Part shown: positions 12,763 to 56,257 of the stretch, piece by piece
How positions within the stretch are numbered: position 1 is the first letter of the stretch
Layout of the letters: each line of letters opens with the position of its first letter
DNA from: a virus
Virus record (IMG/VR): IMGVR_UViG_3300042878_001826
Location: 64,001 to 128,000 of that record
Reading direction: 5' to 3' (one strand)
DNA: 64,000 nt
Notes under the pieces: generated by a model
Told to the model about the DNA's origin: nothing
The model's input: only the letters and a program-made list of their open reading frames with translations
The model's database searches: none
Program-made: the position numbers and the translations under genes

Positions 12763-13116
12763 TTATATTTTTATAATAATAAAAGTTGTTTTGTCGTCTA
12801 ATATATCATCTATGATTGTGTCTCTTCTATTTGATATGTTATGAGCGTCCAGATTCTCACATCTGATGCTCATAGATATTTTTTTACCAAAGTCTATGTC
12901 CATTGTTTTTATTCTACAATTCTGTGCCGCAAACTTTACGGTTGATATGTCAAAGCTTTTCCTTCCTTCGTATATATTTATAAATTCATCGTAGTATTTC
13001 GGATATGTACTTATGTCTAATGTAAGGTATAGAATAGCCCATTTCTCAAAAGAAAGTTGTACATCACATTCCTTTACATAGAATGTATCGTTTGCTATTT
13101 TTAACCAGTTGTTCAT
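12763..13116 (-). CDS. hypothetical protein with near-C-terminal RDxxIxxIL motif
   Basis: RRDTIIDDILDD near the end. Confidence 0.6.
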   Translation of the reverse strand: MNNWLKIANDTFYVKECDVQLSFEKWAILYLTLDISTYPKYYDEFINIYEGRKSFDISTVKFAAQNCRIKTMDIDFGKKISMSIRCENLDAHNISNRRDTIIDDILDDKTTFIIIKI

Positions 13117-13700
13117 TATGCCAGTTTTACTTTATTTGGATTTAAAAAGTCTCTAAGAAAAGCATTCTTCTCACCACCAACAAAATCTACCCAGTCAGAA
13201 TAAAGTTTTCTTTCTTTATCACTACCGTTAAGAAAGTATCCATCTTTTCTCATTTTTTCTATCTTGTTACTATTCATCATGTTATCTTGAAGATATGAGA
13301 AGTGATTTGTCATAACCCAATCTCCAAAGTCTGGATAGTCTTTTCTATTGAATACTCTTTCATCTATGATAAAAACTATTGCAGAAAGCATATCATTTAG
13401 ATCCGGTTCGTAGAACGTCGCTAGATTTACTTCATTAAGCATAAGAACTTCTAAAGTATCTTCCATCGTTCCCTGATATTCGTTTTCGTCGTGGTGATAT
13501 CTATTCATTGAGTGATTGGATGTTCCTCCATTTAGTATGATGAATGTCTTCCAATATTTGGCCCAATCAAGGTATTGTCCGACGTTGAAGTTTTCCAACG
13601 CATATTCAACTACTGCATGTCCGAATTGAATTCCTTTCTGTATCTCGCTGATATTGTAAGGAACGAATCCATACATTCTAAGTTCTAGTTCATTTTTCAT
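13116..13700 (-). CDS. peptidyl-tRNA hydrolase II (PTH2)-like phage protein
   Basis: IQKGIQFGHA; KTFIILNGG; FYEPDLN pattern. Confidence 0.55.
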   Translation of the reverse strand: MKNELELRMYGFVPYNISEIQKGIQFGHAVVEYALENFNVGQYLDWAKYWKTFIILNGGTSNHSMNRYHHDENEYQGTMEDTLEVLMLNEVNLATFYEPDLNDMLSAIVFIIDERVFNRKDYPDFGDWVMTNHFSYLQDNMMNSNKIEKMRKDGYFLNGSDKERKLYSDWVDFVGGEKNAFLRDFLNPNKVKLA

Positions 13701-13729
13701 AGATTTTATATAGTGAAAACTTCAAAAGT

Positions 13730-14215
13730 TTATTTAACCCTATTAGAAAGGCTTCTATTACTGAACTGTTTTAATCCTGTTACTTCAAGTAGATTTTTCT
13801 TTTGTATAAACTCTGGAATCTCTAACTCATAGTCTTCACTAGGTATTTCAATCTCTGCCACTATAATATGACATTTTTGAGAGAACACGTCGACTTCCCA
13901 CTTTAGTTCTCCGTCTGGATATATTCTTCTTTCTTTTGTGATGTATCTTGCATTTTGTTTTGCGGATTTACAACGCTTTACGAAATCATCAAATTCATCT
14001 TTGTCCATATCATATTCATCTTCAATATTCGAAATATCTGATATTCTAGTTTTTATCGTATGAACCCATTTAATTCCATAGATGTTAGAGTCCATTGAGC
14101 GAGCTCTTTCCCATATACCATCTACTTTAAGATACCATTGTTTTATTTTTATAACTTCCGTAGGCTTTAAATCCGGAACTGCCTTTAGTAAAAACTTTCT
14201 TTCAATCTCTATCAT
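13730..14215 (-). CDS. CYTH domain (triphosphate tunnel metalloenzyme) protein
   Basis: N-terminal EIERKFL; WEVDVF; AEIE; SN at the C-terminus. Confidence 0.85.
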   Translation of the reverse strand: MIEIERKFLLKAVPDLKPTEVIKIKQWYLKVDGIWERARSMDSNIYGIKWVHTIKTRISDISNIEDEYDMDKDEFDDFVKRCKSAKQNARYITKERRIYPDGELKWEVDVFSQKCHIIVAEIEIPSEDYELEIPEFIQKKNLLEVTGLKQFSNRSLSNRVK

Positions 14216-14657
14216 CCTCTGTGTCTTTTTTCATCCATCTTTCTACCTTCTCAAAAAAGTGAGATATAAATATAAGTCCAATAGTAAGTACTATCGGTGT
14301 TAGTGTAAGTCCCATTCCACATAGTATTCCTATGGCCGATATGGTCCAAATGAATGCTGCTGTAGTAAGTCCTATTATTTTGTCTTTATTTTGTATTATC
14401 GCTCCAGCACCTAAGAATCCAATCCCGGTTACTATAGTAGAAAGGATTCTGGTTGGATCAGATAAACTGAATTGTTGTGCTGCCAAAAAAGAAACAATTG
14501 TAAAGATACAAGATCCTACACATATAAGTATGTTGGTTCTTATACCAGCCACTTTGTTTCTTCGTTCTCTTTCCCAACCGACTAGCGCACCACATATAGT
14601 AGCAACTCCCACTTTTGGAAGTATAGTTGCAAGTGCTATTATTTCGTTTATGAACAT
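14202..14657 (-). CDS. MgtC/SapB family membrane protein
   Basis: GWERE; AGIRT; DPTRI; GIGFLGAG; GLTTAA. Confidence 0.9.
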   Translation of the reverse strand: MFINEIIALATILPKVGVATICGALVGWERERRNKVAGIRTNILICVGSCIFTIVSFLAAQQFSLSDPTRILSTIVTGIGFLGAGAIIQNKDKIIGLTTAAFIWTISAIGILCGMGLTLTPIVLTIGLIFISHFFEKVERWMKKDTEDDRD

Positions 14658-14740
14658 AAGAGTATTTATAAAAAACAGATGTTTATGTTTTGACAAAGAT
14701 ACAAAATTTAATATTAGATTTCAGATTTAATATATAATGT

Positions 14741-16889: not shown

Positions 16890-17177
16890 CTATAAATCCG
16901 GTCCTTTCAATATTTCTTCTAATCTAATATCTCGATATTCGGCGATTGCTTTTTCAACGTTGATTGCTATATTTTTTGTGTACCACTTTCTCCATTTTGG
17001 ATTTATTCTGGAAATATATTCGACTTCATATCCTATTTGATGTCGACCCGAACCGACTATTGTTCCAGGATCGAGCAGTATTTCTGGATTTATGTCGTAG
17101 TGGGGGTTCATAGTCACTTCGTGCTGGTAGATGACTCTCTTCACCGCGGTGATTCTATTCAATATATCTTTTCCCAT
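16890..17177 (-). CDS. hypothetical protein with C-terminal RDIRLEEIL motif
   Basis: ORF track; motif. Confidence 0.65.
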   Translation of the reverse strand: MGKDILNRITAVKRVIYQHEVTMNPHYDINPEILLDPGTIVGSGRHQIGYEVEYISRINPKWRKWYTKNIAINVEKAIAEYRDIRLEEILKGPDL

Positions 17178-17838: not shown

Positions 17839-18158
17839 AATTTTCTTGTTTCTCCTACAAAAACCACATTGTGGTCTCTTACTAATCTTTCTAAGTGCAT
17901 GTTGTCCTTTGCATAAAGGTAGAACTTTCCTTCTTTATATGTCTCAACGAAATGATATTCTTCGTCAAATAACTCGACACCGTACAAACGATCTTCTTCA
18001 CCGATACCAACATCGGTATGGTCATTACGTTTAAGCCAAGTAAGTATTCCGGTTTGTTCTTCGTTGTTCATTATATCAATATACTTGAACGAATACATTT
18101 CGTCAAGATCATCTAATATCCAACTTTTTGAATCAACTTCAAAATATACTTTTTTCAT
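17835..18158 (-). CDS. hypothetical protein
   Basis: ORF with ATGA overlaps on both sides. Confidence 0.6.
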   Translation of the reverse strand: MKKVYFEVDSKSWILDDLDEMYSFKYIDIMNNEEQTGILTWLKRNDHTDVGIGEEDRLYGVELFDEEYHFVETYKEGKFYLYAKDNMHLERLVRDHNVVFVGETRKL

Positions 18159-18379
18159 ATTCCTATTTTGTTAAGTTTATAATCTCTTATTTCATCTAGA
18201 TTCAATTCTTTAAGATGTCTTTCATGAACAACTAAGTCGTATTCTTCATCATCGATAAAAAAGAATACTCTCATATAATATTTATTTTCAAAAGAAGCTT
18301 TATAGATACCACCGTATTTTAGAGGTTCGTAACAAAAATCCTTTATTTCTCTATCACTTGATATTACTTTAACATACAT
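18155..18379 (-). CDS. hypothetical protein with C-terminal RDYKLNKIGI motif
   Basis: Likely start MYVK at 18379; motif. Confidence 0.65.
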   Translation of the reverse strand: MYVKVISSDREIKDFCYEPLKYGGIYKASFENKYYMRVFFFIDDEEYDLVVHERHLKELNLDEIRDYKLNKIGI

Positions 18380-18380
18380 A

Positions 18381-18752
18381 TTACATTCCAATTTGTTTCT
18401 CAACCATACCTTCAAGAAATCTTTCCATTTCTTTAGACAATTCTACTTCAACATCATCAATAAGGAATCTGTTGATAGAAACCGTTGCTTCGTCTAAACA
18501 AAAATCAGATGCAGGTGGAGTCCAATAGTCGCCAGGACATTCGTCAAAGTATCCACTCAACTCAAGTGTGTATTCGATAACGATGCAAACGTCGTCGTTT
18601 CCAACAGGATTGAAAGAAATCCATTCTTCTTCTCTACAAACTGATCCATCATTTTCATAGATTAACTCACTGAAGTCTTCAGATTTTTTAAAGTCTCCAT
18701 CATAGAATGATAAGTTGTTGAAATCAATCGTGTATGTTTGGTCTAAGCTCAT
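18381..18752 (-). CDS. acidic hypothetical protein (GDYWTPP motif)
   Basis: ORF directly behind the TATATTTG box at 18769-18776. Confidence 0.7.
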   Translation of the reverse strand: MSLDQTYTIDFNNLSFYDGDFKKSEDFSELIYENDGSVCREEEWISFNPVGNDDVCIVIEYTLELSGYFDECPGDYWTPPASDFCLDEATVSINRFLIDDVEVELSKEMERFLEGMVEKQIGM

Positions 18753-23210: not shown

Positions 23211-23220
23211 TATATAGTAT

Positions 23221-25005
23221 ATGATATCAAAATATAATAACTTTATTTTAGAAAAAGCTTTAAACGAGTCTACTTTATATGTTTCTCCTGAGATACTTAA
23301 AAGGCTACAAAAGATTGGTAGTGAAATATCAAGAGATTTAATAAATCAGTTAGGACAGGATATAAAGCCAGATGCAACATTCTTGGACGAAAGTGATAAA
23401 GAAGGTGAACTTACTTTCATCACGATAAGAAATGCAATCAAAAAACTAAGTGATATATATCATGGTGATCCAGATTTCGTTAAGAGTATTGGGGAGCCAG
23501 CAGTTGATACTTTTGCAATAAATATTTCAACCATGTTAAAGAACAACGAACCTGATTTCTGGACTCAATCAAGAAATCCTATAAAGATAGGTAGATTCAT
23601 AAGACAGGTATTTCCAGGTAAATATTCAGATGTTGATATTGAGAAGTTTGTTAACGCATTCAAAAGCTCCGATGAAAAGGATCTACAGAAGTTCATTCTA
23701 GTAGAAGGAGAAGATATTGCAAAATACTATTGGCACGAAAACTATAAAGAGATGGCAGGAGACTTAGGAAGATCTTGTATGGCAAGAAAGAAATTCTTCA
23801 ACATCTATACTCAAAATCCAGAAGTTTGTAGACTTTTAGTTCTTTTAGAAGATGACAAAGTGATAGGAAGGTCTCTTATATGGAAGTTAGATAGAAACAA
23901 CGGAGAAAGTGAGATTGAGTATTTCATGGATAGACAATATACCATAGAGCAATCAGATGTCATCAAGTTCACAAACTACGCAAAAGAAAACGGATGGGCA
24001 TATAAAACATACAACAACCACCATAGCTATTCAAACATAACCCATTTAGGAAGAGAGATGAACTGTGAGATAGTCGTAAAGATAGAAAAGAAGAATTATG
24101 ATGAGTATCCTTATATGGATACACTCAAAAGATTTAATCCAAAGACAGGAGAACTTTTCAACGATACGGATAAAGATGGAAATGAAGGTCAGTTTCTATT
24201 AGAAGATACTGATGGAGACTACACGGAAATAAAATCGGGAAAATGGTCTGAATATTATGATACAGAAATAGATGAAGATGATGCTGTATGGTCTAATGCA
24301 TATGGCGACTGGTTACCTGAGAACAGAGCAGTTCACATAGAAACAGGAAGAGGTAGAAGTAATACTGGATGGTTTCCAGAAGATGACGAAAACATCTACT
24401 ACTCGGAATGGGAAGATGAATATCTACACATAGACGACTGTAGATATTCTGAAGACAAAGACGAATACATACTGAGTAGAAATTCTATATCGGCTGCATA
24501 TAAAATATATGAAGATGGAAGTATAGAAACAAGCTGGTATCACCAAGACGACGACCATTGCATAGATATAGACAGAACGATGAGATGGTATGAAATACTA
24601 TCGGAAAAAAATTCTGATTGGGAAGATGTTTCTAGAATGAATCTAAAAATCACAGATAGATGGAGTACAGTATATAAAGAATTCTATCCTAAGATATTCA
24701 AAGTATTCTTATATAGAATGAAAAATTCAAAAGATAAAATCTATCTAAGCGTAAGAGATGCGAAGATACTTGGATTTGAATATGACAAAGATGATATGAT
24801 TGAGATAGATGACTTCGAATACCACAAGAGATTGAATGAAGCTTATGTAAATGATAAAAGTTTATTTGATACTTTAACAGAGAAATTGGAGAATGATCTT
24901 ATTCCGAATACAGAAAGAATCGCGGATGAAGGCGAAGAAGATATGAAACAAATGTATGTCAATAGGCTTCAAAGAGCTTGGGACAAAATGGGTTATGATA
25001 AATAA
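23221..25005 (+). CDS. hypothetical late protein, SCM-motif family (paralog of 54501-55658)
   Basis: LGRSCM; GRSLIWKL; FMDRQY; YPYMDT; TAATATATA box upstream. Confidence 0.75.
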   Translation: MISKYNNFILEKALNESTLYVSPEILKRLQKIGSEISRDLINQLGQDIKPDATFLDESDKEGELTFITIRNAIKKLSDIYHGDPDFVKSIGEPAVDTFAINISTMLKNNEPDFWTQSRNPIKIGRFIRQVFPGKYSDVDIEKFVNAFKSSDEKDLQKFILVEGEDIAKYYWHENYKEMAGDLGRSCMARKKFFNIYTQNPEVCRLLVLLEDDKVIGRSLIWKLDRNNGESEIEYFMDRQYTIEQSDVIKFTNYAKENGWAYKTYNNHHSYSNITHLGREMNCEIVVKIEKKNYDEYPYMDTLKRFNPKTGELFNDTDKDGNEGQFLLEDTDGDYTEIKSGKWSEYYDTEIDEDDAVWSNAYGDWLPENRAVHIETGRGRSNTGWFPEDDENIYYSEWEDEYLHIDDCRYSEDKDEYILSRNSISAAYKIYEDGSIETSWYHQDDDHCIDIDRTMRWYEILSEKNSDWEDVSRMNLKITDRWSTVYKEFYPKIFKVFLYRMKNSKDKIYLSVRDAKILGFEYDKDDMIEIDDFEYHKRLNEAYVNDKSLFDTLTEKLENDLIPNTERIADEGEEDMKQMYVNRLQRAWDKMGYDK

Positions 25006-25006
25006 G

Positions 25007-28068: not shown

Positions 28069-28311
28069 TTATTTTTTTAAAGTCTCGTCAATCTTGATGT
28101 CTCTCTCAATCGCTTCTTTATTTTGATGATACCAAATTCTAAAGTCACATCCGTAGTAGATGAACTCTTTGATAGTTTTACCATCTTCTTCATATTCAGC
28201 ACAACAAGTTTGACCAAACATGAATCTACTAAAACTTTCTTTCCAGATATCCGGAATTTCAGAATCTTTGATGTCTCTACCTTCTTCGTATATTTCTTTT
28301 AGATTTTTCAT
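28069..28311 (-). CDS. hypothetical protein with C-terminal RDIKIDETL motif
   Basis: Behind the TATATTTG box at 28331-28338. Confidence 0.7.
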   Translation of the reverse strand: MKNLKEIYEEGRDIKDSEIPDIWKESFSRFMFGQTCCAEYEEDGKTIKEFIYYGCDFRIWYHQNKEAIERDIKIDETLKK

Positions 28312-37997: not shown

Positions 37998-38504
37998 TTA
38001 TTTCAATATACTATTTATTTTGTCCTCTCTAATATCAATAAAATGTTTATTGAACTCAGTCACAGTTGAGTAAACTCTTCCTCCTTTATCATCAAATATG
38101 ATGGCATCATCTTTACCAAAGAAAGAATCATATATGATTACATAGTTGTATTGTATCGTCTCGTAGAAGTCATATCCACCCTTTGCTCTAGGTTCTTCAT
38201 TCTTAAATCTCTTTATACAAACACATATTCTGGCATCATATGTTTTTCCACCAGTTGTGTATTTCTCAATCTTTAACTTTCTTTTCTTTAATATTTGTAT
38301 CTTATTAAAGTCAATCAGTCGATGATGTATTATCTTTCTTTCTTTTTGAAACTGCTTTACAAAAGACTCGGTATCTAATCCTTTTGATTTTGAAAAATTC
38401 TCTGGTGAGAACTTGAAGACTTCTTGTAATAGATTATGGTTACCCTTACGTATCTCTACGGTCTTGAGCATCTCAATCCATTTGTTATAGTCTTCTAATG
38501 TCAT
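37998..38504 (-). CDS. hypothetical protein with C-terminal REDKINSIL motif
   Basis: ORF track; motif. Confidence 0.65.
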   Translation of the reverse strand: MTLEDYNKWIEMLKTVEIRKGNHNLLQEVFKFSPENFSKSKGLDTESFVKQFQKERKIIHHRLIDFNKIQILKKRKLKIEKYTTGGKTYDARICVCIKRFKNEEPRAKGGYDFYETIQYNYVIIYDSFFGKDDAIIFDDKGGRVYSTVTEFNKHFIDIREDKINSILK

Positions 38505-45599: not shown

Positions 45600-46204
45600 A
45601 ATACGAAAAACAAAACATATTCTTCATAAGTGATTTACACCTCTTTCATAAGAACGTGATAAAATTCGACAACAGACCATTTGTGGATGTTGAAGAAATG
45701 CACGTTGAAATGATTAAAAGGTGGAACAACGTTGTTGGGGAAAACGACATCGTCTACAACTTAGGAGACCTTTCTTTTGGAAGAAGTGATGGGACCAAAT
45801 GGTTTGTACACTCTCTGAAAGGAAAGATTATACATATTATGGGAAACCATGATAAGATGAAAGACATCATTGCAGTTGATAGAATGGATGGAGTCCACGA
45901 ATACGGAACTGAAATCTGGGTAAAAGATGAAGACAACGAAGGATTGAGAGGTTGCAACGGATACCAGCAAATCATAATGAGTCATTATCCAATCTTTTCT
46001 TGGAACAGAAGCCACTATGGATCTTGGCATCTTCACGGACACACTCACGGATCTTTAATGGCTACTCAACAAGAGTACTACAAAAGAAAAGTAATGGATG
46101 TTGGATGTCCTTGTATAGACTACACACCAATCTCATACGAGCAGGTGAAAGCAGAAATGAAGAAAAAGAAAGTAGGAGTAGTTGATCATCACGGAGAAAA
46201 ATAA
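45596..46204 (+). CDS. calcineurin-like metallophosphoesterase
   Basis: SDLH; LGD; GNHD; SHYP; HGHTH; DVG. Confidence 0.9.
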   Translation: MKYEKQNIFFISDLHLFHKNVIKFDNRPFVDVEEMHVEMIKRWNNVVGENDIVYNLGDLSFGRSDGTKWFVHSLKGKIIHIMGNHDKMKDIIAVDRMDGVHEYGTEIWVKDEDNEGLRGCNGYQQIIMSHYPIFSWNRSHYGSWHLHGHTHGSLMATQQEYYKRKVMDVGCPCIDYTPISYEQVKAEMKKKKVGVVDHHGEK

Positions 46205-46208
46205 AGAT

Positions 46209-46541
46209 ATGACAGAAAGATGGGATTGTATGGCAGTTGTTTGTATCGAACCAATCGAAGGACTTCGTGTTGGCTCTACATATAAAGTAAAAGGACAAGG
46301 TAATCTAGAATACAACGCAGCGACTGATAAGAAAGGTTGGGGATTGTGTTTAGAAGATGATTGGGTTGGTTGCTTTGATGAAAACAACAATCCTATTAAA
46401 GATTCATGGAAACGAAAATATGAGGATAGAACCAGATGGGTCTATATGACATTGGATGAATTAGAAAGACACTTCATAACAGACGATGAAAACTATGAGA
46501 TATACAGAAGAGACGAAAGATTAAAATCATTAGGAATATGA
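46209..46541 (+). CDS. hypothetical protein ending RRDERLKSLGI
   Basis: Likely start at 46209; motif. Confidence 0.7.
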   Translation: MTERWDCMAVVCIEPIEGLRVGSTYKVKGQGNLEYNAATDKKGWGLCLEDDWVGCFDENNNPIKDSWKRKYEDRTRWVYMTLDELERHFITDDENYEIYRRDERLKSLGI

Positions 46542-46915
46542 AATATAAAGACAACAACTTTTCGAAGTTCCAGGATCGTCAGAGAGATGGTGAGGTTGGA
46601 TATTACTCTTCTTCAAAGTCTGATAGACAGGTAAGAAGAGAGCAAGAACATCGTCTTTCTCTTTTCTATTCAAAGTATCTTTCTAAAAAAGTAGAAAAGG
46701 ATTGGTGGTTGTGTCTAAGTTTCGACGACAAGCAGAGATTAGAGACATCATACTATAATCAAGAGCAGATGATGGAAGAGAAAGATCGAATGAGTATGTG
46801 GTCTAACTTTGAGTTCTTCGATACTTGGAAAGAATGGTTTGAACATATCGCTGATGAATACAAACCAGACAGGATAAAATATAGAGAAAGTAAGTTGAAA
46901 AAACTGGGTATATGA
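46538..46915 (+). CDS. hypothetical protein ending RESKLKKLGI
   Basis: ATGA-coupled ORF; motif. Confidence 0.7.
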   Translation: MKYKDNNFSKFQDRQRDGEVGYYSSSKSDRQVRREQEHRLSLFYSKYLSKKVEKDWWLCLSFDDKQRLETSYYNQEQMMEEKDRMSMWSNFEFFDTWKEWFEHIADEYKPDRIKYRESKLKKLGI

Positions 46916-47190
46916 ATTTTTTTTTGATTAAAGATGGTGGAAAGTATTATCTTTGCTTAAAAGACGAACTTATAAAATGTGTGATGAAAGGAAGACTGAC
47001 ACCTCCGACTTTCTTCCGTCTTGAAAAGAGAATGTTCTCAACTCGTTTGGAATTTGACAAAACACACTCTATTATAAAAAAGGAACTATCTGAACTTGTT
47101 TGGACTCTGAAAGAAGGCGAAGACTATTCTTATGACGAAGTAATACTACCATTACTTAGAGAAGCTAAGTTAAAAAATATAGGACTATGA
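46912..47190 (+). CDS. hypothetical protein ending REAKLKNIGL
   Basis: ATGA-coupled ORF; motif. Confidence 0.7.
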   Translation: MNFFLIKDGGKYYLCLKDELIKCVMKGRLTPPTFFRLEKRMFSTRLEFDKTHSIIKKELSELVWTLKEGEDYSYDEVILPLLREAKLKNIGL

Positions 47191-47627
47191 ACGCAGATGA
47201 AATAAAATCATTGCTTGAAGAAGTGTTCTTCGAAGAGGAATACAAGATTTGTGATTTAGACTATGTAAAGTATGAACATAAACTGAAAAGAATATTTGTA
47301 AAATGTTATTCAGAGAAGTTGAATAATCATATGTCTATGTTAGTGATAGACAACTACATCATAGGAACTACGATAGTAGAAGATGTGTGGCAGATTACAT
47401 GGACGCTTCCAAAGCAGAACTATTATATGAACATACCTGGAACAAGCACGAAGAGAAACCCAAGAGATGTTGGTGATCCAAAGTCATTTCTGATGCTGTC
47501 GAAGGAGAAGTTGAAAGACGTAATCTTGATAAACGAAATGAATCGAAGATTGATGGAGGATATGGGTAGAATGAAGGATGAACCAACGACCATTGTAAGA
47601 GACTTTAAACTAAAAAAAATATTATGA
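47187..47627 (+). CDS. hypothetical protein ending RDFKLKKIL
   Basis: ATGA-coupled ORF; motif. Confidence 0.7.
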   Translation: MNADEIKSLLEEVFFEEEYKICDLDYVKYEHKLKRIFVKCYSEKLNNHMSMLVIDNYIIGTTIVEDVWQITWTLPKQNYYMNIPGTSTKRNPRDVGDPKSFLMLSKEKLKDVILINEMNRRLMEDMGRMKDEPTTIVRDFKLKKIL

Positions 47628-48049
47628 GAGAAGAAATAGAAACGGAAAAATCACTGGCTCAGCTGAAAAGATTCATCGTAAGAGAAATGAAAAACCAAAG
47701 TGCGGATTGGGTAAAAACAAAGATTCAACCTAGCTATGGACCTGACCAAAAAGGATTCAAATCAGAGTATCTAAAAATTCTTAAAGAGATTAAAAGGAAT
47801 AATGATGCTGATGATAATAGACCATACTATATACATCTTTGTGATGGTAGAGACGAATGTAAATACGAACTAAAGGATATTGGTCTGTCTAAAATAAGAT
47901 TCTATTTTCTACTTCAATATGTAAAGAGATTCTGTAAGAGACGAGACGAGCTACAGAAAAAAGAAAGACTTGCTGTTCATTGGGAAAGTTTCTTAAAAAG
48001 AAACAAAGTGTTGGATAGAGATAGAAAGATTGATGAAATTTTAAAATAA
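47624..48049 (+). CDS. hypothetical protein ending RDRKIDEILK
   Basis: ATGA-coupled ORF; motif. Confidence 0.7.
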   Translation: MREEIETEKSLAQLKRFIVREMKNQSADWVKTKIQPSYGPDQKGFKSEYLKILKEIKRNNDADDNRPYYIHLCDGRDECKYELKDIGLSKIRFYFLLQYVKRFCKRRDELQKKERLAVHWESFLKRNKVLDRDRKIDEILK

Positions 48050-48054: not shown

Positions 48055-48933
48055 ATGAAAGATATAAAGAGTTTTTGTAAGATGTTTGATTTGAACATAG
48101 CAAGTTTTGACGACTTCGAATACTACAAGAATCAATTCTCACGTATTGATAGATGGAAGAACCTTGACGAGCTTATTACACTATATGAAAAGGCAGAGTC
48201 AGAGATTGGAGACATGTTTGAATATCGTATGTCTAAGATTGACGAAATTGTTGCATTTGTTAAAGGAACTCGTGCATACAACGATATGGCAGACGAAAAT
48301 CTTATTCCAGATTATCCGACTAACAAGAGCTTCGAATATTCTGAGGGAGTGAACTATCTTTCTATTGACTTAAAGATGGCGAACTGGCAAGCAATGAAGA
48401 AATACGATCCATCTTTTATAAATGAATTAGGTGAAACCTATTCTGAGTTCTTGAATAAGTTTGGAGTACCAGAGGTATTCCATAAATCAAAACATTTCAG
48501 ACAGTATATCTTTGGAAATCTAAATCCAAAGAAACAGATAAAGGCACAAAGAGTGATGATTGAAGACATCAAAAACGCTATGTCAAAATATGGTCTTAAA
48601 ATAGAGTGTATTAAACACGACGAGATTATCTACTCTTTTGAAAAGATAGAAGATGTTAGAGAGATTATCGAAGGATTGGATGGTGAAGATTTTACTATAA
48701 CACCATTTACTATTAAAAAAGTTGAAAACTTCAGAATAAATCAGTATCTTTGTAAAGATAGTGGTGAAATACTACATAGCGAGCCAGTTGGATGTAATGG
48801 TCATAAGTTTTTTATGTATTTGAAAAAATATATCTTCAACGAGCCATATGACATCAGAGACTTGTATTTCCGAATGGATGGCGAGCTTGCAATCTGGAGC
48901 ACAGACAACTTAAAATTAGAATTGAATGACTGA
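48055..48933 (+). CDS. hypothetical protein with DNA polymerase palm-like motifs
   Basis: YLSIDLKMAN (motif A-like) and IKHDEIIY (PolA motif C-like). Confidence 0.45.
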   Translation: MKDIKSFCKMFDLNIASFDDFEYYKNQFSRIDRWKNLDELITLYEKAESEIGDMFEYRMSKIDEIVAFVKGTRAYNDMADENLIPDYPTNKSFEYSEGVNYLSIDLKMANWQAMKKYDPSFINELGETYSEFLNKFGVPEVFHKSKHFRQYIFGNLNPKKQIKAQRVMIEDIKNAMSKYGLKIECIKHDEIIYSFEKIEDVREIIEGLDGEDFTITPFTIKKVENFRINQYLCKDSGEILHSEPVGCNGHKFFMYLKKYIFNEPYDIRDLYFRMDGELAIWSTDNLKLELND

Positions 48934-49186
48934 CATTTACTTTTATGATACCAACAAAAAACTTATACTGAAAGATGTTATAGATGATAAGGTTGTTGGT
49001 TTTGATACTGTGTTTGCAAAAACGAGAGCAACAGAGTATCTCAGAAAGATTGGTATACCAGCGAGTGTGAAGTCGTTTGAAAAAGCGACTATACTAAATA
49101 AGTTCAATGGTACTTTCTGTATAAAAGTTTATTTGAATGATACCGCAACAATAAGAGAAATTATATTAAAAAACATATTAGACTAA
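48926..49186 (+). CDS. hypothetical protein ending REIILKNILD
   Basis: ORF track; motif variant. Confidence 0.65.
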   Translation: MTDIYFYDTNKKLILKDVIDDKVVGFDTVFAKTRATEYLRKIGIPASVKSFEKATILNKFNGTFCIKVYLNDTATIREIILKNILD

Positions 49187-49808: not shown

Positions 49809-51125
49809 ATGGTAAAGATAGTAGAAATTGTAACGATAACTAATTTGATTCCAGTCTTCAAAGAAGGAGCTGAGGCAAATGCTATTCAAGTAGCTAAGTT
49901 TAGTTTTGATAATGGTGGTGAATGTGGTTTTAATGTGATTGCACAGAAAGGCTTATATGAGATAGGTTCAAAGGCAATCTATATCCAACCAGACTATTGT
50001 CTTTCTGAAAACGACTTATTTATGAGTTTCATTGCACCTGGTGGAGATCCAAAGAGATCTAGATTAGGTAAGCAAAATCGTATTCGTGCGATTAAGTTTA
50101 ACTTTTCTTTCGAAGGTTCTAACGACCCTATTTATTCAAATGGTGTCTTACTACCTTTAGAAGAAGTAGAAGCTTTCTTGTTTGAAGGTGATGAAAACTA
50201 TTGCTTCTATAGTGATATGCCTTCTCCTGAAGCATATAGAGAATTAGACTTAGCAGAAGAGTTGGGTGTCACTAAGTATGAAGAACCAGAAACTGCAGGC
50301 TCTGGTTTAATCGCTGGTGAGTTCCCTTCTTTTATGTATAAGACTGATGAACAAAACATCAACAACATTGTAGACCACGTCAAAAAGATAATAACAGAAG
50401 GTCAGGAAATGGGAATCACTATCAAACGTGATGGTAGTTCTCACACGACTTACTTCAAATTAGAAGGTGAAGACTACAAATCTGGTGTTTGTTCCAGAGC
50501 TCAAGAAAAGAAAATGGATCAAACCTTTGTTACTGAATACTTAGATGAAGATAAAAATCTTTATCATAGATACTTTGATAAAGACACTATGACTAAAGGA
50601 TGGTTTTGTGATAATTTATCTCAGTTCAGAGAAGATGATGAAATGGATGGTTTTGAAGCAATCACTAAAGAAGTAAAAGACTCTTGGATTGAATTGGCTA
50701 CAAACTCTGGACTATTGGAAAATGGTTTAGCTTATTGTAAAGAGCATGGATTGCAGCTTGCTTTCCGTGGAGAGATTATCGGACAAGGATTGAAAGGTTC
50801 TGGAAACAAAGTGAATCCGGATTCAAATGAAAAACAGAAACTTGTTCTTTTCGGGATTGATGATTTGTCTGAAGGATTCTCTAAAAGAATCAACTATTCA
50901 TCTCCTCACAATTTGAGAGATGTTTCTAAGATTCTTGGGATTGAATACACTCCGGTGTTTATCGCTAAGTTTGCGACCTATGAAGCTCTTTGTGAATACT
51001 GTGATGGTATCTTTGCTAAAGAGAAATCAGAGGGTAGAATCATTGAGGGTGTTGTTGTAAGAACTCTGTACACAAATGACTTGAGTTGTAAGTACATGAA
51101 TCCTGAATATGATGCTAAGAAATGA
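49809..51125 (+). CDS. RNA ligase, DRB0094/Rnl5-like
   Basis: N-terminal OB-like domain; FPSF..KTDE; IKRDGSS (motif I); RGEI.G; EGVVVR; K.MNP.Y. Confidence 0.8.
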   Translation: MVKIVEIVTITNLIPVFKEGAEANAIQVAKFSFDNGGECGFNVIAQKGLYEIGSKAIYIQPDYCLSENDLFMSFIAPGGDPKRSRLGKQNRIRAIKFNFSFEGSNDPIYSNGVLLPLEEVEAFLFEGDENYCFYSDMPSPEAYRELDLAEELGVTKYEEPETAGSGLIAGEFPSFMYKTDEQNINNIVDHVKKIITEGQEMGITIKRDGSSHTTYFKLEGEDYKSGVCSRAQEKKMDQTFVTEYLDEDKNLYHRYFDKDTMTKGWFCDNLSQFREDDEMDGFEAITKEVKDSWIELATNSGLLENGLAYCKEHGLQLAFRGEIIGQGLKGSGNKVNPDSNEKQKLVLFGIDDLSEGFSKRINYSSPHNLRDVSKILGIEYTPVFIAKFATYEALCEYCDGIFAKEKSEGRIIEGVVVRTLYTNDLSCKYMNPEYDAKK

Positions 51126-51186
51126 TTGTTTCTAAAAACTTATATATAGAGAAGGGAGAAAATCCCTTCAAAATATATGAGTCGAT

Positions 51187-51756
51187 ATGCTATCAAGAGA
51201 ACGTCTGATAAGAATGGTGAGAAGGTCTCAGACCTATATTTCCATATTTATATTTTTGTCAGTATTCTTGGTTTGTTGGAAGTTTGCCAATTTGGACATA
51301 CGTGAGATACAGCTTTCAAACTGGGGCAAGTCTGGATGGATTGGAAGAATATGGAATTCCGCGGTGTGTCTTTTCGCGGTATCGATATTTGTGAACTCTT
51401 TTCTTTATTTAAAGAACAATACTAGAATAAAGTATAAGAAAAAGTTTTATTTTTTATTTGGATTCTTATCGACTTGTCTTTTTGCAGTAGGTTTTTTCAA
51501 CATAGATTATAGACTGATACACAATGTTTCCGCAGGGCTTTATTTCTTCTTCTATCCTCTGACTATATTTATGTTTGCTTATCTGAATCGAAAATATATG
51601 CAGTATTCTGATTGGTTACAAAAGGTTATAATATCAACATCGATGGCCGTGTTTCCTATAATACTTTTGAGTATGTTTCATGGGATGGCGATTGCAGAGA
51701 TTGCACATACTTTTTTAGTAATTTTGTACAACATTAAAATAGCACGACATGAGTGA
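51187..51756 (+). CDS. multi-pass membrane protein (DUF998-like)
   Basis: Several TM segments; LS.WG; IH..SA..YF. Confidence 0.6.
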   Translation: MLSRERLIRMVRRSQTYISIFIFLSVFLVCWKFANLDIREIQLSNWGKSGWIGRIWNSAVCLFAVSIFVNSFLYLKNNTRIKYKKKFYFLFGFLSTCLFAVGFFNIDYRLIHNVSAGLYFFFYPLTIFMFAYLNRKYMQYSDWLQKVIISTSMAVFPIILLSMFHGMAIAEIAHTFLVILYNIKIARHE

Positions 51757-52045
51757 CTACTTCATAAAATATAAAAGCCTTGCGATTCACGCACATCAAA
51801 CATCTAAACTAATAAATAAATATTCGTATAAAGTTATTCCAATCGCAAGCGATATGGAGTATGAGTACATACGTCTTAGGTTTCCTTATGCAAACTGTAT
51901 AAGGATGGATCTGAGAGAACAACTCTTTGGTAAGAATCTTCAAAAGACACTACCAAAAAAGATAATGAAGGAAGTCTGCAATCTTGTCGAGGTTAAATCA
52001 CTGATAAGAGACGAAAGGCTTGAAAGACTTTTGAACAATGAATAA
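51749..52045 (+). CDS. hypothetical protein ending RDERLERLLNNE
   Basis: ORF track; motif. Confidence 0.65.
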   Translation: MSDYFIKYKSLAIHAHQTSKLINKYSYKVIPIASDMEYEYIRLRFPYANCIRMDLREQLFGKNLQKTLPKKIMKEVCNLVEVKSLIRDERLERLLNNE

Positions 52046-52064
52046 TTTTTGATATATTTGTTAT

Positions 52065-52436
52065 ATGAGTGATATTGTTATAAAAATGACTCCGTTTATT
52101 TTTGAAGACGGAAATACATACTACTTTCAGATAGAAGATAGAGATAGTAGTAATGACTATCATGATCTTTATGTCTATAAAAAGGTAGTTATTAAAAGAA
52201 AGTTTCTTTGGTGGAAGTGGGAAAACATTCGTTATGATTTAATAAATGAAAGTCCTGAGTTAGTTGATACTAAATTGAATATTAGTGAAATCAAATCTGA
52301 TATAAAAAAGATAATCATAGCAAAATCTGCAAACCATCAGATAAGGGGCTGGGATGGCTTCGTCGGTAATGTACCAGAGGAACTAAAGAAGTCTATGCAA
52401 AGAGATTCTAAATTAAATGATTTATTCAACGAATGA
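52065..52436 (+). CDS. hypothetical protein ending RDSKLNDLFNE
   Basis: Behind the TATATTTG box at 52053; motif. Confidence 0.7.
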   Translation: MSDIVIKMTPFIFEDGNTYYFQIEDRDSSNDYHDLYVYKKVVIKRKFLWWKWENIRYDLINESPELVDTKLNISEIKSDIKKIIIAKSANHQIRGWDGFVGNVPEELKKSMQRDSKLNDLFNE

Positions 52437-52867: not shown

Positions 52868-52887
52868 CTTTTGTGTATATAACATAC

Positions 52888-53241
52888 ATGAATGTAAATT
52901 ATGGAATAAAAGAACCACAGGTGGAAATAGACCTGGACAATCCAATCTTTGTCTACTACATAAACGTGAACGGACTGTCACCACAAAGGGCGAATGAAGT
53001 AATCAGTCAGGTCAAAGATCAATGGAGTTATTCGAACGTCGTTACCTGGATTGTTCCTCGTCAACAAGGAGATACAAAGATAGAATGTGTCTATGATGGT
53101 AGAATAAAAGAAAGAAGTGAGGAACTTAAAGAACTTATCGAAGAGATAAACGAAAAGGTAGACTTGATGTCACAGTCTTCTAGCTTCGAAGACTTTAAAA
53201 TCATAGTAAGAGACTGGAGATTAAAAACTCTATTAAAGTAA
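52888..53241 (+). CDS. hypothetical protein ending RDWRLKTLLK
   Basis: Likely ATG at 52888; motif. Confidence 0.65.
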   Translation: MNVNYGIKEPQVEIDLDNPIFVYYINVNGLSPQRANEVISQVKDQWSYSNVVTWIVPRQQGDTKIECVYDGRIKERSEELKELIEEINEKVDLMSQSSSFEDFKIIVRDWRLKTLLK

Positions 53242-53615
53242 TGTCATTAGGAAAGTACAAAAGTAAATCTGAAATATACTCAGACACCTTCACGGTAGAT
53301 TGGGAAATGATCGCGGACAATTGGTATTGTTGGGATGATTACTACCACTATGGTTGGGAGTATGATTCCTATTCATATTACGATTATGAGTACGAGTCTT
53401 GGCAATACAAAGAAAAGGTTTACCGAACGTACGTGTCTAAACGAGTAAGAGTTACCATAGAGGAAAGACTTATTGGTGAGTTCATCGACATGGATAGTAT
53501 CTATGAAATGGGAACTATCTATTATAGGGAAAGAATGCTGAACAGGCTTTTGGGTTTAGAACAGTTTGACGAAGAAAGAAAAACAACAATCGGGGATTAC
53601 TTCCCTTTAAAATAA
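53241..53615 (+). CDS. Tyr/Asp-rich hypothetical protein with RERMLNRLL near the C-terminus
   Basis: ORF track. Confidence 0.65.
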   Translation: MSLGKYKSKSEIYSDTFTVDWEMIADNWYCWDDYYHYGWEYDSYSYYDYEYESWQYKEKVYRTYVSKRVRVTIEERLIGEFIDMDSIYEMGTIYYRERMLNRLLGLEQFDEERKTTIGDYFPLK

Positions 53616-54095: not shown

Positions 54096-54096
54096 T

Positions 54097-54315
54097 ATGG
54101 GAAGTGGAGTTAGTAAGATGTATGATGACTATGATGATTATGAATACATCTGTAAAATGTTAAATGAGAAAACGGTTGGCTTAAGAGAGTTCTTGGATCA
54201 CGAAGAAGAGATTTTGGTCAAGCACGGATTCAAAGACAAATATGACTATTTTCAATATCTGAACCTTCAAGAAGAAAGAGATAAAAAGATAGTGAAAATA
54301 TTGGGCGAATCTTAA
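54097..54315 (+). CDS. hypothetical protein ending RDKKIVKILGES
   Basis: ORF track; motif. Confidence 0.65.
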   Translation: MGSGVSKMYDDYDDYEYICKMLNEKTVGLREFLDHEEEILVKHGFKDKYDYFQYLNLQEERDKKIVKILGES

Positions 54316-54348
54316 AGATTCCTTATCTTTGTTAAAACAAACAGAGAT

Positions 54349-54504
54349 ATGATAGACAACATTGCATACGATATGATAGAGAATCTTGAAGCTTCTAAAA
54401 TGGTAGACTTTTTAAGAATGATGAATGATTATAAAGCTACTCTTCTAATGCAAGAGATAAACAAATCTGAATCAGAAGACTTCTCTGACGATTTACCTTT
54501 TTAA
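54349..54504 (+). CDS. 51-aa peptide ending in the SSB-like acidic tail SEDFSDDLPF (not in ORF track)
   Basis: Translated by hand; has its own TATCTTTG box at 54324-54331. Confidence 0.7.
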   Translation: MIDNIAYDMIENLEASKMVDFLRMMNDYKATLLMQEINKSESEDFSDDLPF

Positions 54505-55658
54505 TTCGGTAAATCGTATTTTAGATTTATAGAGGTATCAACTCCATAATTCTTCAAAGCTATATGACCATCACCACAATTATTACAGATTACTTTAATA
54601 CCCAAATCTCTTTCGAAGCATTTACCTTTGCAGGTTCCACATTCATCATAGCTTCCATCGGTGTAGTGTAACCAATTACAATCCTTCGACGGAAGGTTTG
54701 AAAGAGTATTCTGTTGCTTGTTCAAAAAGCAAAGTGTGTCTACGAATGGTGCTTTGTCTACGTCTCCGTTTAGCTTTACGGTTATTTCTCCATATACATC
54801 TTTACCACCATATACAAACTCAACATTGCTTTTGGTATGACTATTCATATATTTCTTGTATAGGAATCTGTTTTCGTTTGCAAACTTTTTGAATTTTATC
54901 ACATCAGAGTCGTTGTTTGAATATACTCTATCCATGAAAAAATTAGACTCACACGGAGAATTCTTTAGTTTCCAAACCAATGCCCTTCCAGATATCTGGT
55001 CGGTTTCTTTGTCTACTAGTATCAAAAGTTGAACTTTTGTTTCGTTTTGAGTGTATAATTTAAAAGTTTTCTTTCCTTTTTCTGCCATACAAGAACTACC
55101 TAAACTTCCTTTATCACTTAAATATTTTTCGTTATTGTAGTATTTGGCTATTTCTTCTCCTTTTACAAGTCTGAACTCCATGTTGCTGCTTGATTCTGAT
55201 GCTTTGTATGCGTTTACGAAAGCTTCTAATTCACTATCACTTACACTAAACTTTCCTTTCTTACGAAATGTTGTTACGCCAGATGATGTATTTAAAACGT
55301 TTATGATATATTTAACAAGTTTTCCAATCTTCATTTCGGATCTACCCATAGAATATGGCAGTCCTGCATCATATTCAGAATCCCACTCTTCAGGTACTTT
55401 GTTGTTCATCGTAAAGCTGACCATATCTGCTTTGTCTGTAGTGTCGAAGAAGTTCTGAGCTATTTCATCATCTTCTATATACTGTTCGTCTTCTATATAC
55501 TTTCTTATGAATCTAGCAATCTCTGCAGTTTTTCCGTTGTCCAATGACAATTCGAAAAGCTTTCTCAAAAAATCGGATGATGCATGAAGTTGTCCTTCTA
55601 ACATAAGTTTTATTTCTTCGTTAAGCTTTTCTAATATAAACTGGTTATACTTTCTCAT
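54501..55658 (-). CDS. hypothetical late protein, SCM-motif family (paralog of 23221-25005)
   Basis: LGSSCM; GRALVWKL; FMDRVY; PFVDTL; likely start MRKYNQF at 55658. Confidence 0.75.
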   Translation of the reverse strand: MRKYNQFILEKLNEEIKLMLEGQLHASSDFLRKLFELSLDNGKTAEIARFIRKYIEDEQYIEDDEIAQNFFDTTDKADMVSFTMNNKVPEEWDSEYDAGLPYSMGRSEMKIGKLVKYIINVLNTSSGVTTFRKKGKFSVSDSELEAFVNAYKASESSSNMEFRLVKGEEIAKYYNNEKYLSDKGSLGSSCMAEKGKKTFKLYTQNETKVQLLILVDKETDQISGRALVWKLKNSPCESNFFMDRVYSNNDSDVIKFKKFANENRFLYKKYMNSHTKSNVEFVYGGKDVYGEITVKLNGDVDKAPFVDTLCFLNKQQNTLSNLPSKDCNWLHYTDGSYDECGTCKGKCFERDLGIKVICNNCGDGHIALKNYGVDTSINLKYDLPN

Positions 55659-55708
55659 AATGATAAAAATTTTAGTATTTTTGTATATATTAAATAATAA
55701 AAACACTT

Positions 55709-56257
55709 ATGAGAAATAGAGCTCAGCAAACGAATGGTGATAAAGATTGGACTCCATATTTAAGAGACTTCAAGCTAAGTATTATTACTGGCGAACGAGA
55801 AATAAAAATCAGCCAAGAATGTTTAACGATATTCGACGAGCAGTTAGCATTCATCAGAGACGAATTCCCTAATGATATCATAACAGGGTCGCTGGGTCTT
55901 AACATATTTGGCTTTCTGGAACGAGAGATATCAGATATCGACATCTTGATAAAGGATAGAGAAAGATATAGTCAATATAATAGTGGTGAATACTATCGAC
56001 GAACAAAAAACAACGAGCTGGACATGGAACGCAGACTTGGTTATTTGGAAATAAAGCATAGAAAGCGTGGAATCTGGGGCAAGCTTTTCCCTAAGAAATA
56101 TAAAGTAGACTTCTTCGAAGACAAAGGCACGAGATATTCCGAAGTAAAATACAAAGGACATGTCTACAAAGTGCAGCATCCTATAGATATAATAGAAACA
56201 AAAATAACACTCGAAGGTAGCAAGCATTATCGTGATCTTTATTGTATATTCGGATAA
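55709..56257 (+). CDS. Pol-beta-fold nucleotidyltransferase-like protein
   Basis: ITGSLGL; SDIDIL; KVDFF; KH.RD. Confidence 0.65.
   Translation: MRNRAQQTNGDKDWTPYLRDFKLSIITGEREIKISQECLTIFDEQLAFIRDEFPNDIITGSLGLNIFGFLEREISDIDILIKDRERYSQYNSGEYYRRTKNNELDMERRLGYLEIKHRKRGIWGKLFPKKYKVDFFEDKGTRYSEVKYKGHVYKVQHPIDIIETKITLEGSKHYRDLYCIFG

What the first reader, a model, noticed from the sequence alone, without database searches (positions are those of the whole stretch)
12763..56257. A shared terminal tag R-[DE]-x-[KR]-[LI]-x-x-[LI]-[LG] on about 16 unrelated small proteins
Seen at or near the C-terminus: RDTIIDDIL (12763), RDIRLEEIL (16890), RDYKLNKIGI (18155), RDIKIDETL (28069), REDKINSIL (37998), RDERLKSLGI (46209), RESKLKKLGI (46538), REAKLKNIGL (46912), RDFKLKKIL (47187), RDRKIDEIL (47624), REIILKNIL (48926), RDERLERLL (51749), RDSKLNDLF (52065), RDWRLKTLL (52888), RERMLNRLL (53241), RDKKIVKIL (54097). 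It is also internal in 27412 (REEKINFIL) and near the N-terminus of the nucleotidyltransferase at 55709 (RDFKLSII). The protein bodies share nothing I can see and the codons differ, so conservation is at protein level. Five carriers are consecutive and translationally coupled (46209-48049), and most lie in operons behind host-type promoters. Inference: a portable amphipathic docking helix that plugs a variable library of early effectors into one hub (phage ClpC, a host machine, or a phage compartment), or a common degron. This is my best candidate for an undescribed system in the window.
Basis: partly seen in the sequence, partly recalled or inferred. Interest (0 to 1): 0.88.

Follow-up and report, generated by a model that had tools for sequence, protein, structure and literature searches.

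The report
Shared C-terminal tag in huge phages
About one gene in ten of this uncultured large phage of Bacteroidota, and up to one in four in its relatives (including a published 642-kb phage), encodes a small protein ending in the same ten-residue helix on mostly unrelated bodies; I found this label in no paper, and its reader is still unknown.

Summary
The motif R-[DE]-x-[KR]-[LI]-x-x-[LI]-[GL]-[ILx] occurs 25 times in the last 30 residues of the genome's 207 ORF products. Shuffling predicts 1.4. Internal copies are at chance level.

Codon use shows that selection acts on the peptide. The motif sits a fixed distance from the stop, most often with two residues after the second Leu/Ile.

The same tag marks a whole clade of 150-640 kb uncultured phages. 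It ends 7-25% of their genes, 291-299 tags in six genomes depending on the motif pattern. It is also in GenBank LR756502.1. It is essentially absent from 596 Gb of prokaryotic genomes.

About 20% of carriers belong to one SH3-like family (DUF6501/DUF7244). There the tag is a helix after the last barrel only. The rest fall into about 190 groups with no detectable kinship.

Tagged genes lie preferentially behind Bacteroidota-type promoter boxes and are depleted behind late-type boxes.

Its hub is not identified:
- the phage REC protein is excluded as universal reader;
- the ClpC test gave no verdict.

This scan has met analogous, differently spelled tags in other huge-phage clades, so this is a new instance of a recurring phenomenon that I did not find described in print.

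The parts
12763..13116 (-). 117-aa protein with the tag-like helix RRDTIIDDIL followed by a 16-residue tail. It lies directly upstream of the ClpC-like gene, and this synteny is conserved.
   Evidence: In alignment A5 the motif residues R98, I102 and D103 are among the 8 invariant columns.
16890..17177 (-). 95-aa carrier ending RDIRLEEILKGPDL
18155..18415 (-). 86-aa carrier ending RDYKLNKIGI
28069..28311 (-). 80-aa protein ending RDIKIDETLKK. It is off-consensus (Thr at the second hydrophobic position) and a weak member.
37998..38504 (-). 168-aa carrier ending REDKINSILK
46182..46541 (+). 119-aa carrier ending RDERLKSLGI. It is the first of five genes that overlap by 4 nt each.
   Evidence: Metagenomic orthologs at 71-91% identity keep the tag.
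46538..46915 (+). 125-aa carrier ending RESKLKKLGI
46912..47190 (+). 92-aa carrier ending REAKLKNIGL
47187..47627 (+). 146-aa carrier ending RDFKLKKIL
47624..48049 (+). 141-aa carrier ending RDRKIDEILK
48926..49186 (+). 86-aa carrier ending REIILKNILD
51749..52045 (+). 98-aa carrier ending RDERLERLLNNE
52065..52436 (+). 123-aa carrier ending RDSKLNDLFNE. Orthologs in IMG/VR contigs end ...RDNKLKDLGI.
52873..53241 (+). 122-aa carrier ending RDWRLKTLLK
53241..53615 (+). 124-aa protein with RERMLNRLLG followed by a 19-residue tail
54097..54315 (+). 72-aa carrier ending RDKKIVKILGES
10604..12730 (-). ClpC-type AAA+ unfoldase, 708 aa. It has no N-domain, a UVR-type M-domain, and an invariant VGF loop at the place where ClpC docks on ClpP. 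It is a candidate reader by inference only.
   Evidence: It is found in all 6 near-complete tag-bearing genomes at 69-86% identity and in LR756502.1 at 71%.

Best explanation
The motif is a portable C-terminal peptide tag. It is a short amphipathic helix of about 10-12 residues, (hydrophobic)-R-[DE]-x-[KR]-[LI]-[KN]-[EDQK]-[LI]-[GL]-[ILx], usually ending one or two residues before the stop. It is attached to many different small accessory proteins of a clade of huge phages that most likely infect Bacteroidota.

Shown:
- it is selected as a peptide;
- it occurs once per protein, at the C-terminus;
- it sits on a known fold as a helix after the last domain;
- it sits on about 190 further body groups with no detectable kinship;
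- tagged genes are preferentially in early-type transcription units.

Inferred: the tag gives this large, fast-evolving set of early proteins one common handle that a single reader recognises.

That is the N-domain-less ClpC-type unfoldase, which keeps its ClpP-docking VGF loop, working with phage or host ClpP. The handle would then either time the removal of early proteins (a degron) or dock them on the unfoldase as adaptors.

For: Positional and statistical:
- 25 C-terminal hits against 1.4 expected in this genome.
- 21-84 tagged genes per genome in six related genomes against at most 2.6 in shuffles.
- A sharp offset distribution, with internal copies at chance level.

Protein-level selection:
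- All synonymous codons are used, at the frequencies typical of gene 3' ends.
- In the IMG/VR scan the positions left free by the pattern are still biased (K/N, then E/D/Q), and Phe is excluded although the pattern allowed it.

Phage-specific:
- 104 of 113 IMG/VR matches are ends of ORFs of 38-212 aa.
- The 73 single matches in 596 Gb of prokaryotic genomes are almost never ORF ends.
- The reversed-pattern control gave 0 in 23 records.

Portability:
- 291 tagged proteins fall into 236 BLAST families, and 299 fall into 192 jackhmmer groups.
- SH3-like family members with two barrels carry the tag once, after the last barrel. Multi-repeat relatives elsewhere carry none.
- The AF2 model (pLDDT 87.7) places the tag as helix 67-79 after the barrel.

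Conservation of charged R, D/E and K on unrelated bodies argues for recognition from outside the protein.

Early-type context.

ClpC lead:
- The ClpC-like gene is present in all six near-complete tag-bearing genomes and in LR756502.1.
- Its VGF loop is invariant.
- ClpP is encoded in 5 of 10 records searched: G001, G002, G004, G013 and LR756502.1.
- The gene always found just upstream of ClpC-like has a tag-like helix, and three motif residues are among its 8 invariant columns.
- Two tagged genes sit inside the conserved grpE-dnaJ operon.
Against: - No reader has been shown, and all of the ClpC evidence is circumstantial. It rests on co-occurrence within one clade, where hundreds of genes co-occur.
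- Extensions of up to about 7 residues after the motif are tolerated. This does not fit degrons or pockets that need the free carboxylate at a fixed place.
- Two ending types coexist (…LGI and …IL-polar), which could mean two readers or loose recognition.
- Orthologs keep their ending type across genomes. There is therefore no sign of tags switching together with a co-evolving reader.
- A fifth of the carriers are true paralogs, so part of the spread is by descent.
- Later checks of analogous tag findings elsewhere in this scan priced the single-reader reading at only 6-33%.
Confidence: 0.4

Rival explanations
1. Self-association handle. The helices of tagged proteins pair with each other as homo- or hetero-oligomers. 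This would drive small accessory proteins into dimers, bundles or a common assembly, with no separate reader.
For: The charge pattern is self-complementary (R1/K4 against D/E2 and E/D/Q7), and the hydrophobic stripe (positions 0, 5, 8, 9/10) suits an antiparallel helix pair; this is read from the sequence logo. The helix is predicted with confidence. No reader was found.
Against: A ten-residue helix is short for a stable coiled coil. Promiscuous pairing among 20-80 different proteins would need a purpose.
Confidence: 0.2
2. Inherited structural helix. All or most carriers descend from one or a few small-domain families in which the last helix packs on the body. The bodies diverged beyond recognition while the helix stayed.
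For: 57-66 of about 300 tagged proteins are one SH3-like family in which nearly every single-domain member has the helix. PWWP-type barrels among the Foldseek matches carry a helical C-terminal extension after the barrel (for the matches; the extension is recalled knowledge). Orthologs keep their tags.
Against: Bodies range from 29 to about 320 residues. None of 120 other tagged bodies reaches hhalign probability 50% against the family profile, which is the same as untagged controls, while family members give a median of 96%. Barrel repeats fold without the helix, and two-barrel proteins have it only once. Exposed charged residues would not stay invariant on different folds for packing reasons alone.
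Confidence: 0.15
3. Virion-packaging or ejection signal. This would be a C-terminal counterpart of the T4 capsid targeting sequence, loading many small proteins into the very large capsid.
For: The phage has T4-like traits: gp32, UvsX, topoisomerase II and TATAAATA-like boxes before large genes. Huge capsids are known to carry many proteins (established knowledge). The tag contains [LI]-x-E in about half of the cases, which resembles the T4 prohead protease site.
Against: Tagged genes are depleted in units behind late-type boxes (5.3% against 23.6% behind host-type boxes). Position 7 is E in only about 40-50% of tags. A separate N-terminal CTS-like motif exists in the same genomes.
Confidence: 0.07
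4. Nucleic-acid-level signal. The tag-coding DNA or RNA would be the selected object, for example a translation re-initiation region for the next gene or a recombination handle for shuffling cassettes.
For: 15 of 24 tagged genes overlap the next gene on the same strand, against 25 of 77 untagged small genes. Many tags end in ATATGA, which creates the next ATG. Third codon positions are A-rich.
Against: The A-rich bias is the same in the last ten codons of untagged coupled genes. Leu, Ile, Gly and Arg use all synonyms. Conservative amino-acid swaps (L/I, D/E, K/R) change first or second codon bases. Many tags end in TAA with no overlapping start. The reversed pattern gives no matches, and the pattern is frame-specific at ORF ends.
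Confidence: 0.04

Closest known systems
T4 capsid targeting sequence (CTS) of internal proteins IPI-III and Alt
   Same: A roughly 10-residue terminal peptide shared by otherwise unrelated proteins of a T4-type phage and read by one partner. The same genomes here also carry an N-terminal M-K-x-[LI]-K-x-[FY]-x-x-[FE] motif that resembles the CTS.
   Different: The CTS is N-terminal, is made late and is cut off by the prohead protease. This tag is C-terminal, is depleted in late-type units, has an unrelated sequence, and marks 7-25% of all genes.
C-terminal degrons of AAA+ proteases (ssrA tag/ClpXP, MuA C-terminus/ClpX)
   Same: A short C-terminal peptide with a non-polar end is enough to hand unrelated proteins to one machine. 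The clade encodes a ClpC-type unfoldase with a ClpP-docking loop, and often ClpP as well.
   Different: The ssrA tag is added during translation and needs the free carboxylate. This tag is gene-encoded, helical, charged, and tolerates up to about 7 extra residues. No degradation has been shown.
F-box / SOCS (BC)-box adaptors and poxvirus ANK-PRANC proteins
   Same: The logic is the same: a small conserved helical module on many variable proteins plugs them into one hub. The number of carriers per genome is similar.
   Different: Those modules are 40 or more residues long (the BC-box core is about 10). They are eukaryotic and dock on Skp1 or Elongin C. No homology is claimed here and no hub is known.
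C-terminal clamp-binding peptides of T4 gp43, gp33 and gp55 (PIP-box-like)
   Same: C-terminal, hydrophobic and acidic peptides shared by several phage proteins, all read by one ring. The spacing [DE]-x-x-[LI]-x-x-[LI]-[LGF] recalls Q-x-x-[LIM]-x-x-[FY]-[FY]; this comparison rests on my recollection of those motifs.
   Different: Here the carriers are small orphan proteins. No replication or transcription protein of known function carries the tag. Neither a clamp nor a B-family polymerase was found in this fragment.
Other clade-specific C-terminal helix tags of huge phages noted earlier in this scan (for example ...I-K-[ND]-I-I-E-COOH and V-x-x-V-[MQH]-[ED]-S-COOH)
   Same: The same phenomenon: a sixth to a third of the genes, small orphan proteins, a short helix at a fixed distance from the stop, and an unknown reader.
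   Different: The sequence and the phage clade differ. Those notes are unchecked AI reports, and none names a reader.

Membership tests
T4-type capsid targeting sequence | Located at the N-terminus of the precursor | tested here: not met
   The motif lies within 1-7 residues of the C-terminus in nearly all cases.
T4-type capsid targeting sequence | Carriers are expressed late, together with head assembly | tested here: not met
   5.3% of genes behind late-type boxes are tagged, against 23.6% behind TAnnTTTG boxes (heuristic scan).
T4-type capsid targeting sequence | Ends in the prohead-protease site [LI]-x-E | tested here: inconclusive
   Position 7 is E in 42 of 88 IMG/VR tags and in 9-53% of tags per genome. 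Otherwise it is D, Q or K.
ssrA-like C-terminal degron read by a Clp unfoldase | Non-polar last residues with a free carboxylate at a fixed position | tested here: inconclusive
   The commonest ending is ...L-G-I-COOH, but ...I-L-K...L-L-D and tails of up to 7 residues are also common.
ssrA-like C-terminal degron read by a Clp unfoldase | The tag is sufficient for ATP-dependent degradation | not testable with these tools
   This needs a half-life or in-vitro degradation assay.
Clamp-binding (PIP-like) C-terminal peptides | Carried by the polymerase and other DNA-tracking proteins of the same phage | tested here: not met
   No protein of known replication or transcription function carries the tag. 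The largest carriers are 310-331 aa, with SH3-like parts.
CheY-binding peptides (CheZ C-terminus, FliM N-terminus) | A REC-domain reader present wherever the peptide is present | tested here: not met
   The phage REC-only protein is found in 2 of 6 near-complete tag-bearing genomes. A host REC protein was not tested.
DUF6501/DUF7244 SH3-like small barrel (body of about 20% of carriers) | Sequence match to the family and a five-strand SH3-like barrel | tested here: met
   57-66 members by jackhmmer and HMM iteration. AF2 pLDDT is 87.7. The top Foldseek matches are SH3, KOW, PsaE and PWWP, all with E above 0.001. Pfam finds DUF6501/DUF7244 on tagless multi-repeat relatives. No carrier inside the window belongs to this family; the genome's one member lies outside it (G000 50971-51222).
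PDZ- or Tsp-type recognition of C-termini | Strict dependence on the last 3-4 residues and the carboxylate | tested here: inconclusive
   L-G-I fits a hydrophobic-x-hydrophobic ending, but extensions are tolerated and the conserved R, D/E and K lie 7-10 residues upstream. PDZ genes were not searched for.

The most novel reading that the evidence does not exclude
The tagged proteins form an adaptor library. Each variable body binds a different host target, such as a defence system or a housekeeping hub. The shared helix plugs the pair into the phage's own N-domain-less ClpC/ClpP machine, which destroys or remodels the target. This would be a bacterial-virus counterpart of F-box or SOCS-box substrate receptors, and it would be used by a whole clade of huge phages.
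Probability: 0.08. Interest if true: 0.93.

Novelty: new variant of a known kind. Interest (0 to 1): 0.72.

Why it matters
Huge phages carry hundreds of small orphan genes that resist annotation. A label shared by 7-25% of them turns an unreadable set into one experimentally addressable class.

The tag is also a practical marker. One DNA pattern recovers this phage clade from metagenomes with almost no false hits in cellular genomes.

The scan has met differently spelled tags in several other huge-phage clades. The principle may therefore be general for very large phage genomes.

Tried and rejected
1. Complex prediction of ClpC-like (alignment A3) with the tagged protein 46182-46541 (A1) returned 'no answer', score 0.00. 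It carries no weight either way.

2. Phage REC-only (CheY-like) protein as reader. The idea came from the L-x-x-L-G-hydrophobic-COOH spacing that I recalled for CheZ. The protein is present in only 2 of 6 near-complete tag-bearing genomes, so I dropped it as a universal reader.

3. Host mimicry. The tag pattern in 185,579 prokaryotic genomes gave 73 single matches that are almost never ORF ends. No host protein family with this ending was found. The pattern fixed AGA for Arg, so GC-rich hosts are poorly covered.

4. DNA-level or recombination-handle reading. Codon use in tags equals that of control gene ends.

5. Tags switching type together between genomes. In 8 of 10 ortholog pairs the G or non-G ending type is kept. 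Differences between genomes reflect gene content.

6. Link between phage ClpP and LGI-type tags. Records with ClpP have 3-28 strict tags and records without have 2-6. That is eight records, not tested for significance, and G002 is an exception.

7. A late-type box upstream of ClpC-like in this genome is not conserved in G003, G004 or G006.

8. Pfam and PHROGs on carriers gave nothing above threshold. A PDB sequence search of the SH3-like family found nothing.

9. The AF2 model of 46182-46541 is of low confidence (pLDDT 57.8). Only its terminal helix, residues 102-116, is moderately confident.

10. Contigs found through the RNA ligase (L010-L017) are not the same clade and have almost no tags.

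11. Literature searches for the tag strings, for DUF6501, and for shared C-terminal motifs in huge phages found no description. DUF7244 is mentioned once, as an SH3-clan domain in T1-like phages (PMC13164509).

Full report
**What the DNA is.** The window is bases 64001-128000 of a single 150,251-bp IMG/VR virus record that CheckV rates 61% complete. G+C is 31-37%. It has no close relative among GenBank phages. It encodes:
- T4-type functions: UvsX, gp32, topoisomerase II and RNA ligases;
- an unusual proteostasis set: DnaK, GrpE, DnaJ and a ClpC-type ATPase;
- PrkA/YeaH/SpoVR, NusG and a two-component module.

- Over the whole record, R-[DE]-x-x-[LIM]-x-x-[LI] occurs 25 times in the last 30 residues of 207 ORF products and 9 times elsewhere (Fisher p = 3e-18). 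Shuffled C-termini give 1.37 on average and never more than 5.
- A slightly relaxed pattern finds 31 carriers under 260 aa.
- With the tag removed, the bodies show no pairwise BLAST similarity below E = 0.03 and no Pfam or PHROGs family.

**It is a peptide, not a DNA signal.** Arg, Leu, Ile, Lys and Gly at the conserved positions use all synonymous codons. Tags show an excess of A-ending codons. The same excess is seen in the last ten codons of 392 untagged small genes that are followed closely by another gene. It therefore reflects gene ends in tightly coupled operons, not the tag. Tagged genes overlap the next gene more often than untagged ones do (15 of 24 against 25 of 77), which fits their place in dense arrays.

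**It is a clade-wide trait.**
- Metagenomic orthologs of the carrier at 46182-46541 (71-91% identity) keep RDExLKSLGI, and a syntenic contig keeps tags on the neighbouring orthologs.
- A scan of IMG/VR for the back-translated ending R-[DE]-x-K-L-x-x-L-G-I-stop gave 113 matches. Of these, 104 are ends of ORFs of 38-212 aa.
- The positions left free by the pattern are also biased, so the consensus is R-[DE]-x-K-L-[KN]-[EDQ]-L-G-I.
- The 88 distinct proteins fall into 64 BLAST families with no shared Pfam family.
- The same scan of 596 Gb of prokaryotic genomes gave 73 isolated matches that are almost never ORF ends.
- In 23 virus records a looser pattern gave up to 31 matches per record, and none for the reversed control.
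- I fetched five related records in full. Tags end 84 of 329 genes in G013, 46 of 181 in G018, 72 of 508 in G004, 35 of 413 in G006 and 33 of 481 in G003. Shuffles give at most 2.6.
- Tags cluster in small-gene regions, mostly on one strand. In one 20-kb bin of G013, 30 of 56 genes are tagged.
- All six near-complete tag-bearing records (281-483 kb) encode a 69-86% identical homolog of the window's ClpC-like protein.
- So does GenBank LR756502.1, a 642-kb genome (71% identity) with 14 strict tags. Its length matches one of the four largest genomes of Al-Shayeb et al. 2020. That paper places all its genomes above 634 kb in the Mahaphage clade and predicts Bacteroidetes hosts (PMC7162821).
- Two relatives encode ribosomal protein bS21, as do the freshwater Bacteroidetes phages of PMC9723584.

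**Anatomy of the tag.** In six genomes the second conserved Leu/Ile is followed by exactly two residues in 167 cases and by one to seven in nearly all others. Beyond that the motif is at background level. Two ending types coexist...[LI]-G-[ILV] and ...[LI]-L-polar. Orthologs usually keep their type (8 of 10 pairs), so I see no concerted switching between genomes. Arg at position 1 is essentially invariant.

**Are the carriers one family?** Partly.
- Iterated searches join 57 of 299 tagged bodies (66 after HMM iteration) into one family. The rest stay in 191 groups, 156 of them singletons.
- AlphaFold2 models the family with pLDDT 87.7 as a five-strand barrel followed by helix 67-79, which is the tag. 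Foldseek places the barrel with SH3, KOW, PsaE and PWWP domains.
- A profile search of 1.84 billion representative proteins finds 7158 relatives. Single-barrel proteins of 62-90 aa keep the tag. Two-barrel proteins carry it once, after the last barrel. Multi-repeat proteins from other organisms match Pfam DUF6501/DUF7244 and have no tag. The helix is therefore a separable C-terminal module, not part of the barrel.
- None of 120 other tagged bodies resembles the family profile (hhalign probability below 50%, as for 120 untagged controls; family members give 96%).

**Expression context.** A simple motif scan assigns each gene to the nearest upstream box on its strand. Of genes behind a Bacteroidota-type TAnnTTTG box, 23.6% are tagged. 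Of genes behind TATAAATA/TAATATAT boxes, which precede the large, probably structural genes, 5.3% are tagged (p = 9e-20). This is a heuristic, not transcript evidence.

**Search for a reader.**
- Only 61 BLAST families are shared by the three complete genomes I compared, and 42 of them lie in this record.
- Among these is the ClpC-like protein. It lacks the N-domain through which ClpC normally binds adaptors (that role is recalled knowledge). It keeps a UVR-type M-domain and an invariant G-V-G-F-S loop where ClpC docks on ClpP. ClpP is encoded in 5 of 10 records searched.
- The gene always found directly upstream (window 12763-13116) has a tag-like helix, R-R-D-x-I-I-D-D-I-L. Three of its motif residues (R98, I102, D103) are among the protein's 8 invariant columns.
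- Two tagged genes sit between grpE and dnaJ in a conserved operon.
- These are leads only. The one complex prediction I could run gave no verdict.
- A second idea, the phage's CheY-like REC protein, fails because four of six complete genomes lack it.

**Verdict.** The tag is real, is selected as a peptide, is bound to the C-terminus and is portable. It is typical of a clade of huge phages that probably infect Bacteroidota. I rate 'one shared reader' at about 0.4, with the Clp machinery as first candidate at about 0.12. Self-association is about 0.2, inherited structural helix about 0.15, packaging about 0.07 and a nucleic-acid signal about 0.04. No paper I could search describes the tag. Earlier notes of this scan report the same tag in the other two windows of this genome, and analogous but differently spelled tags in other huge-phage clades. 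This is therefore a new instance of a recurring phenomenon that I did not find described in print.

Noticed in passing
window 10604-12730 (-) and 12763-13116 (-): ClpC-type unfoldase without an N-domain but with an invariant VGF (ClpP-docking) loop. In four genomes it is always preceded by a 117-133 aa protein whose invariant columns include three residues of a tag-like helix. This may be a phage-specific adaptor-unfoldase pair.
   Followed up: partly
window 54501-55706 (-) and 23221-25005 (+); G000 27267-28568 and 128760-129728: A multi-copy family: 23 members in six genomes, 309-632 aa, with no Pfam match. It starts with an M-x-K-Y-N-x-F-I-L-E-type N-terminal motif. Several members end in DnaJ-like CxxCxGxG zinc-finger repeats.
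   Followed up: partly
G000 38969-42460 (outside the window; L006:969-4460): A conserved operon: 162-aa protein, GrpE, two tagged small proteins, a 79-aa ORF, then DnaJ. DnaK lies at G000 30227-32119. The phage carries a complete Hsp70 system.
   Followed up: partly
window 19648, 23221, 30482, 58014, 59466 (gene starts): TAATATAT/TATAAATA boxes lie 13-14 nt upstream of the starts of large genes, including a 901-aa BspA-type leucine-rich-repeat protein downstream in one unit. They look like T4-type late promoters.
   Followed up: partly
window 27412-28065 (-): This 217-aa protein has the motif REEKINFIL in the middle (residues 115-123). It could be a tagged gene fused to its downstream neighbour by loss of a stop codon, or it could be chance.
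   Followed up: no
G000 20870-25647 (outside the window; L005): A phage-encoded PrkA, DUF444 (YeaH) and SpoVR trio, known from bacterial stress and sporulation loci.
   Followed up: no
G000 51809-52186 (-) (outside the window): A conserved 125-aa cREC_REC (cyclic-phosphate-processing receiver) domain protein. It has six copies across four genomes, in a genome that also has two RNA ligases.
   Followed up: no
window 6858-7733 (-): A GT10 alpha-1,3-fucosyltransferase homolog that is conserved across the clade.
   Followed up: no
G000 92359-92961 (window 28359-28961, -) and relatives; L012: An N-terminal motif M-K-[YH]-[LI]-K-x-F-[NE] occurs on diverse proteins. It resembles the T4 capsid targeting sequence. 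It is also present in a phage (L012) that has few C-terminal tags.
   Followed up: no
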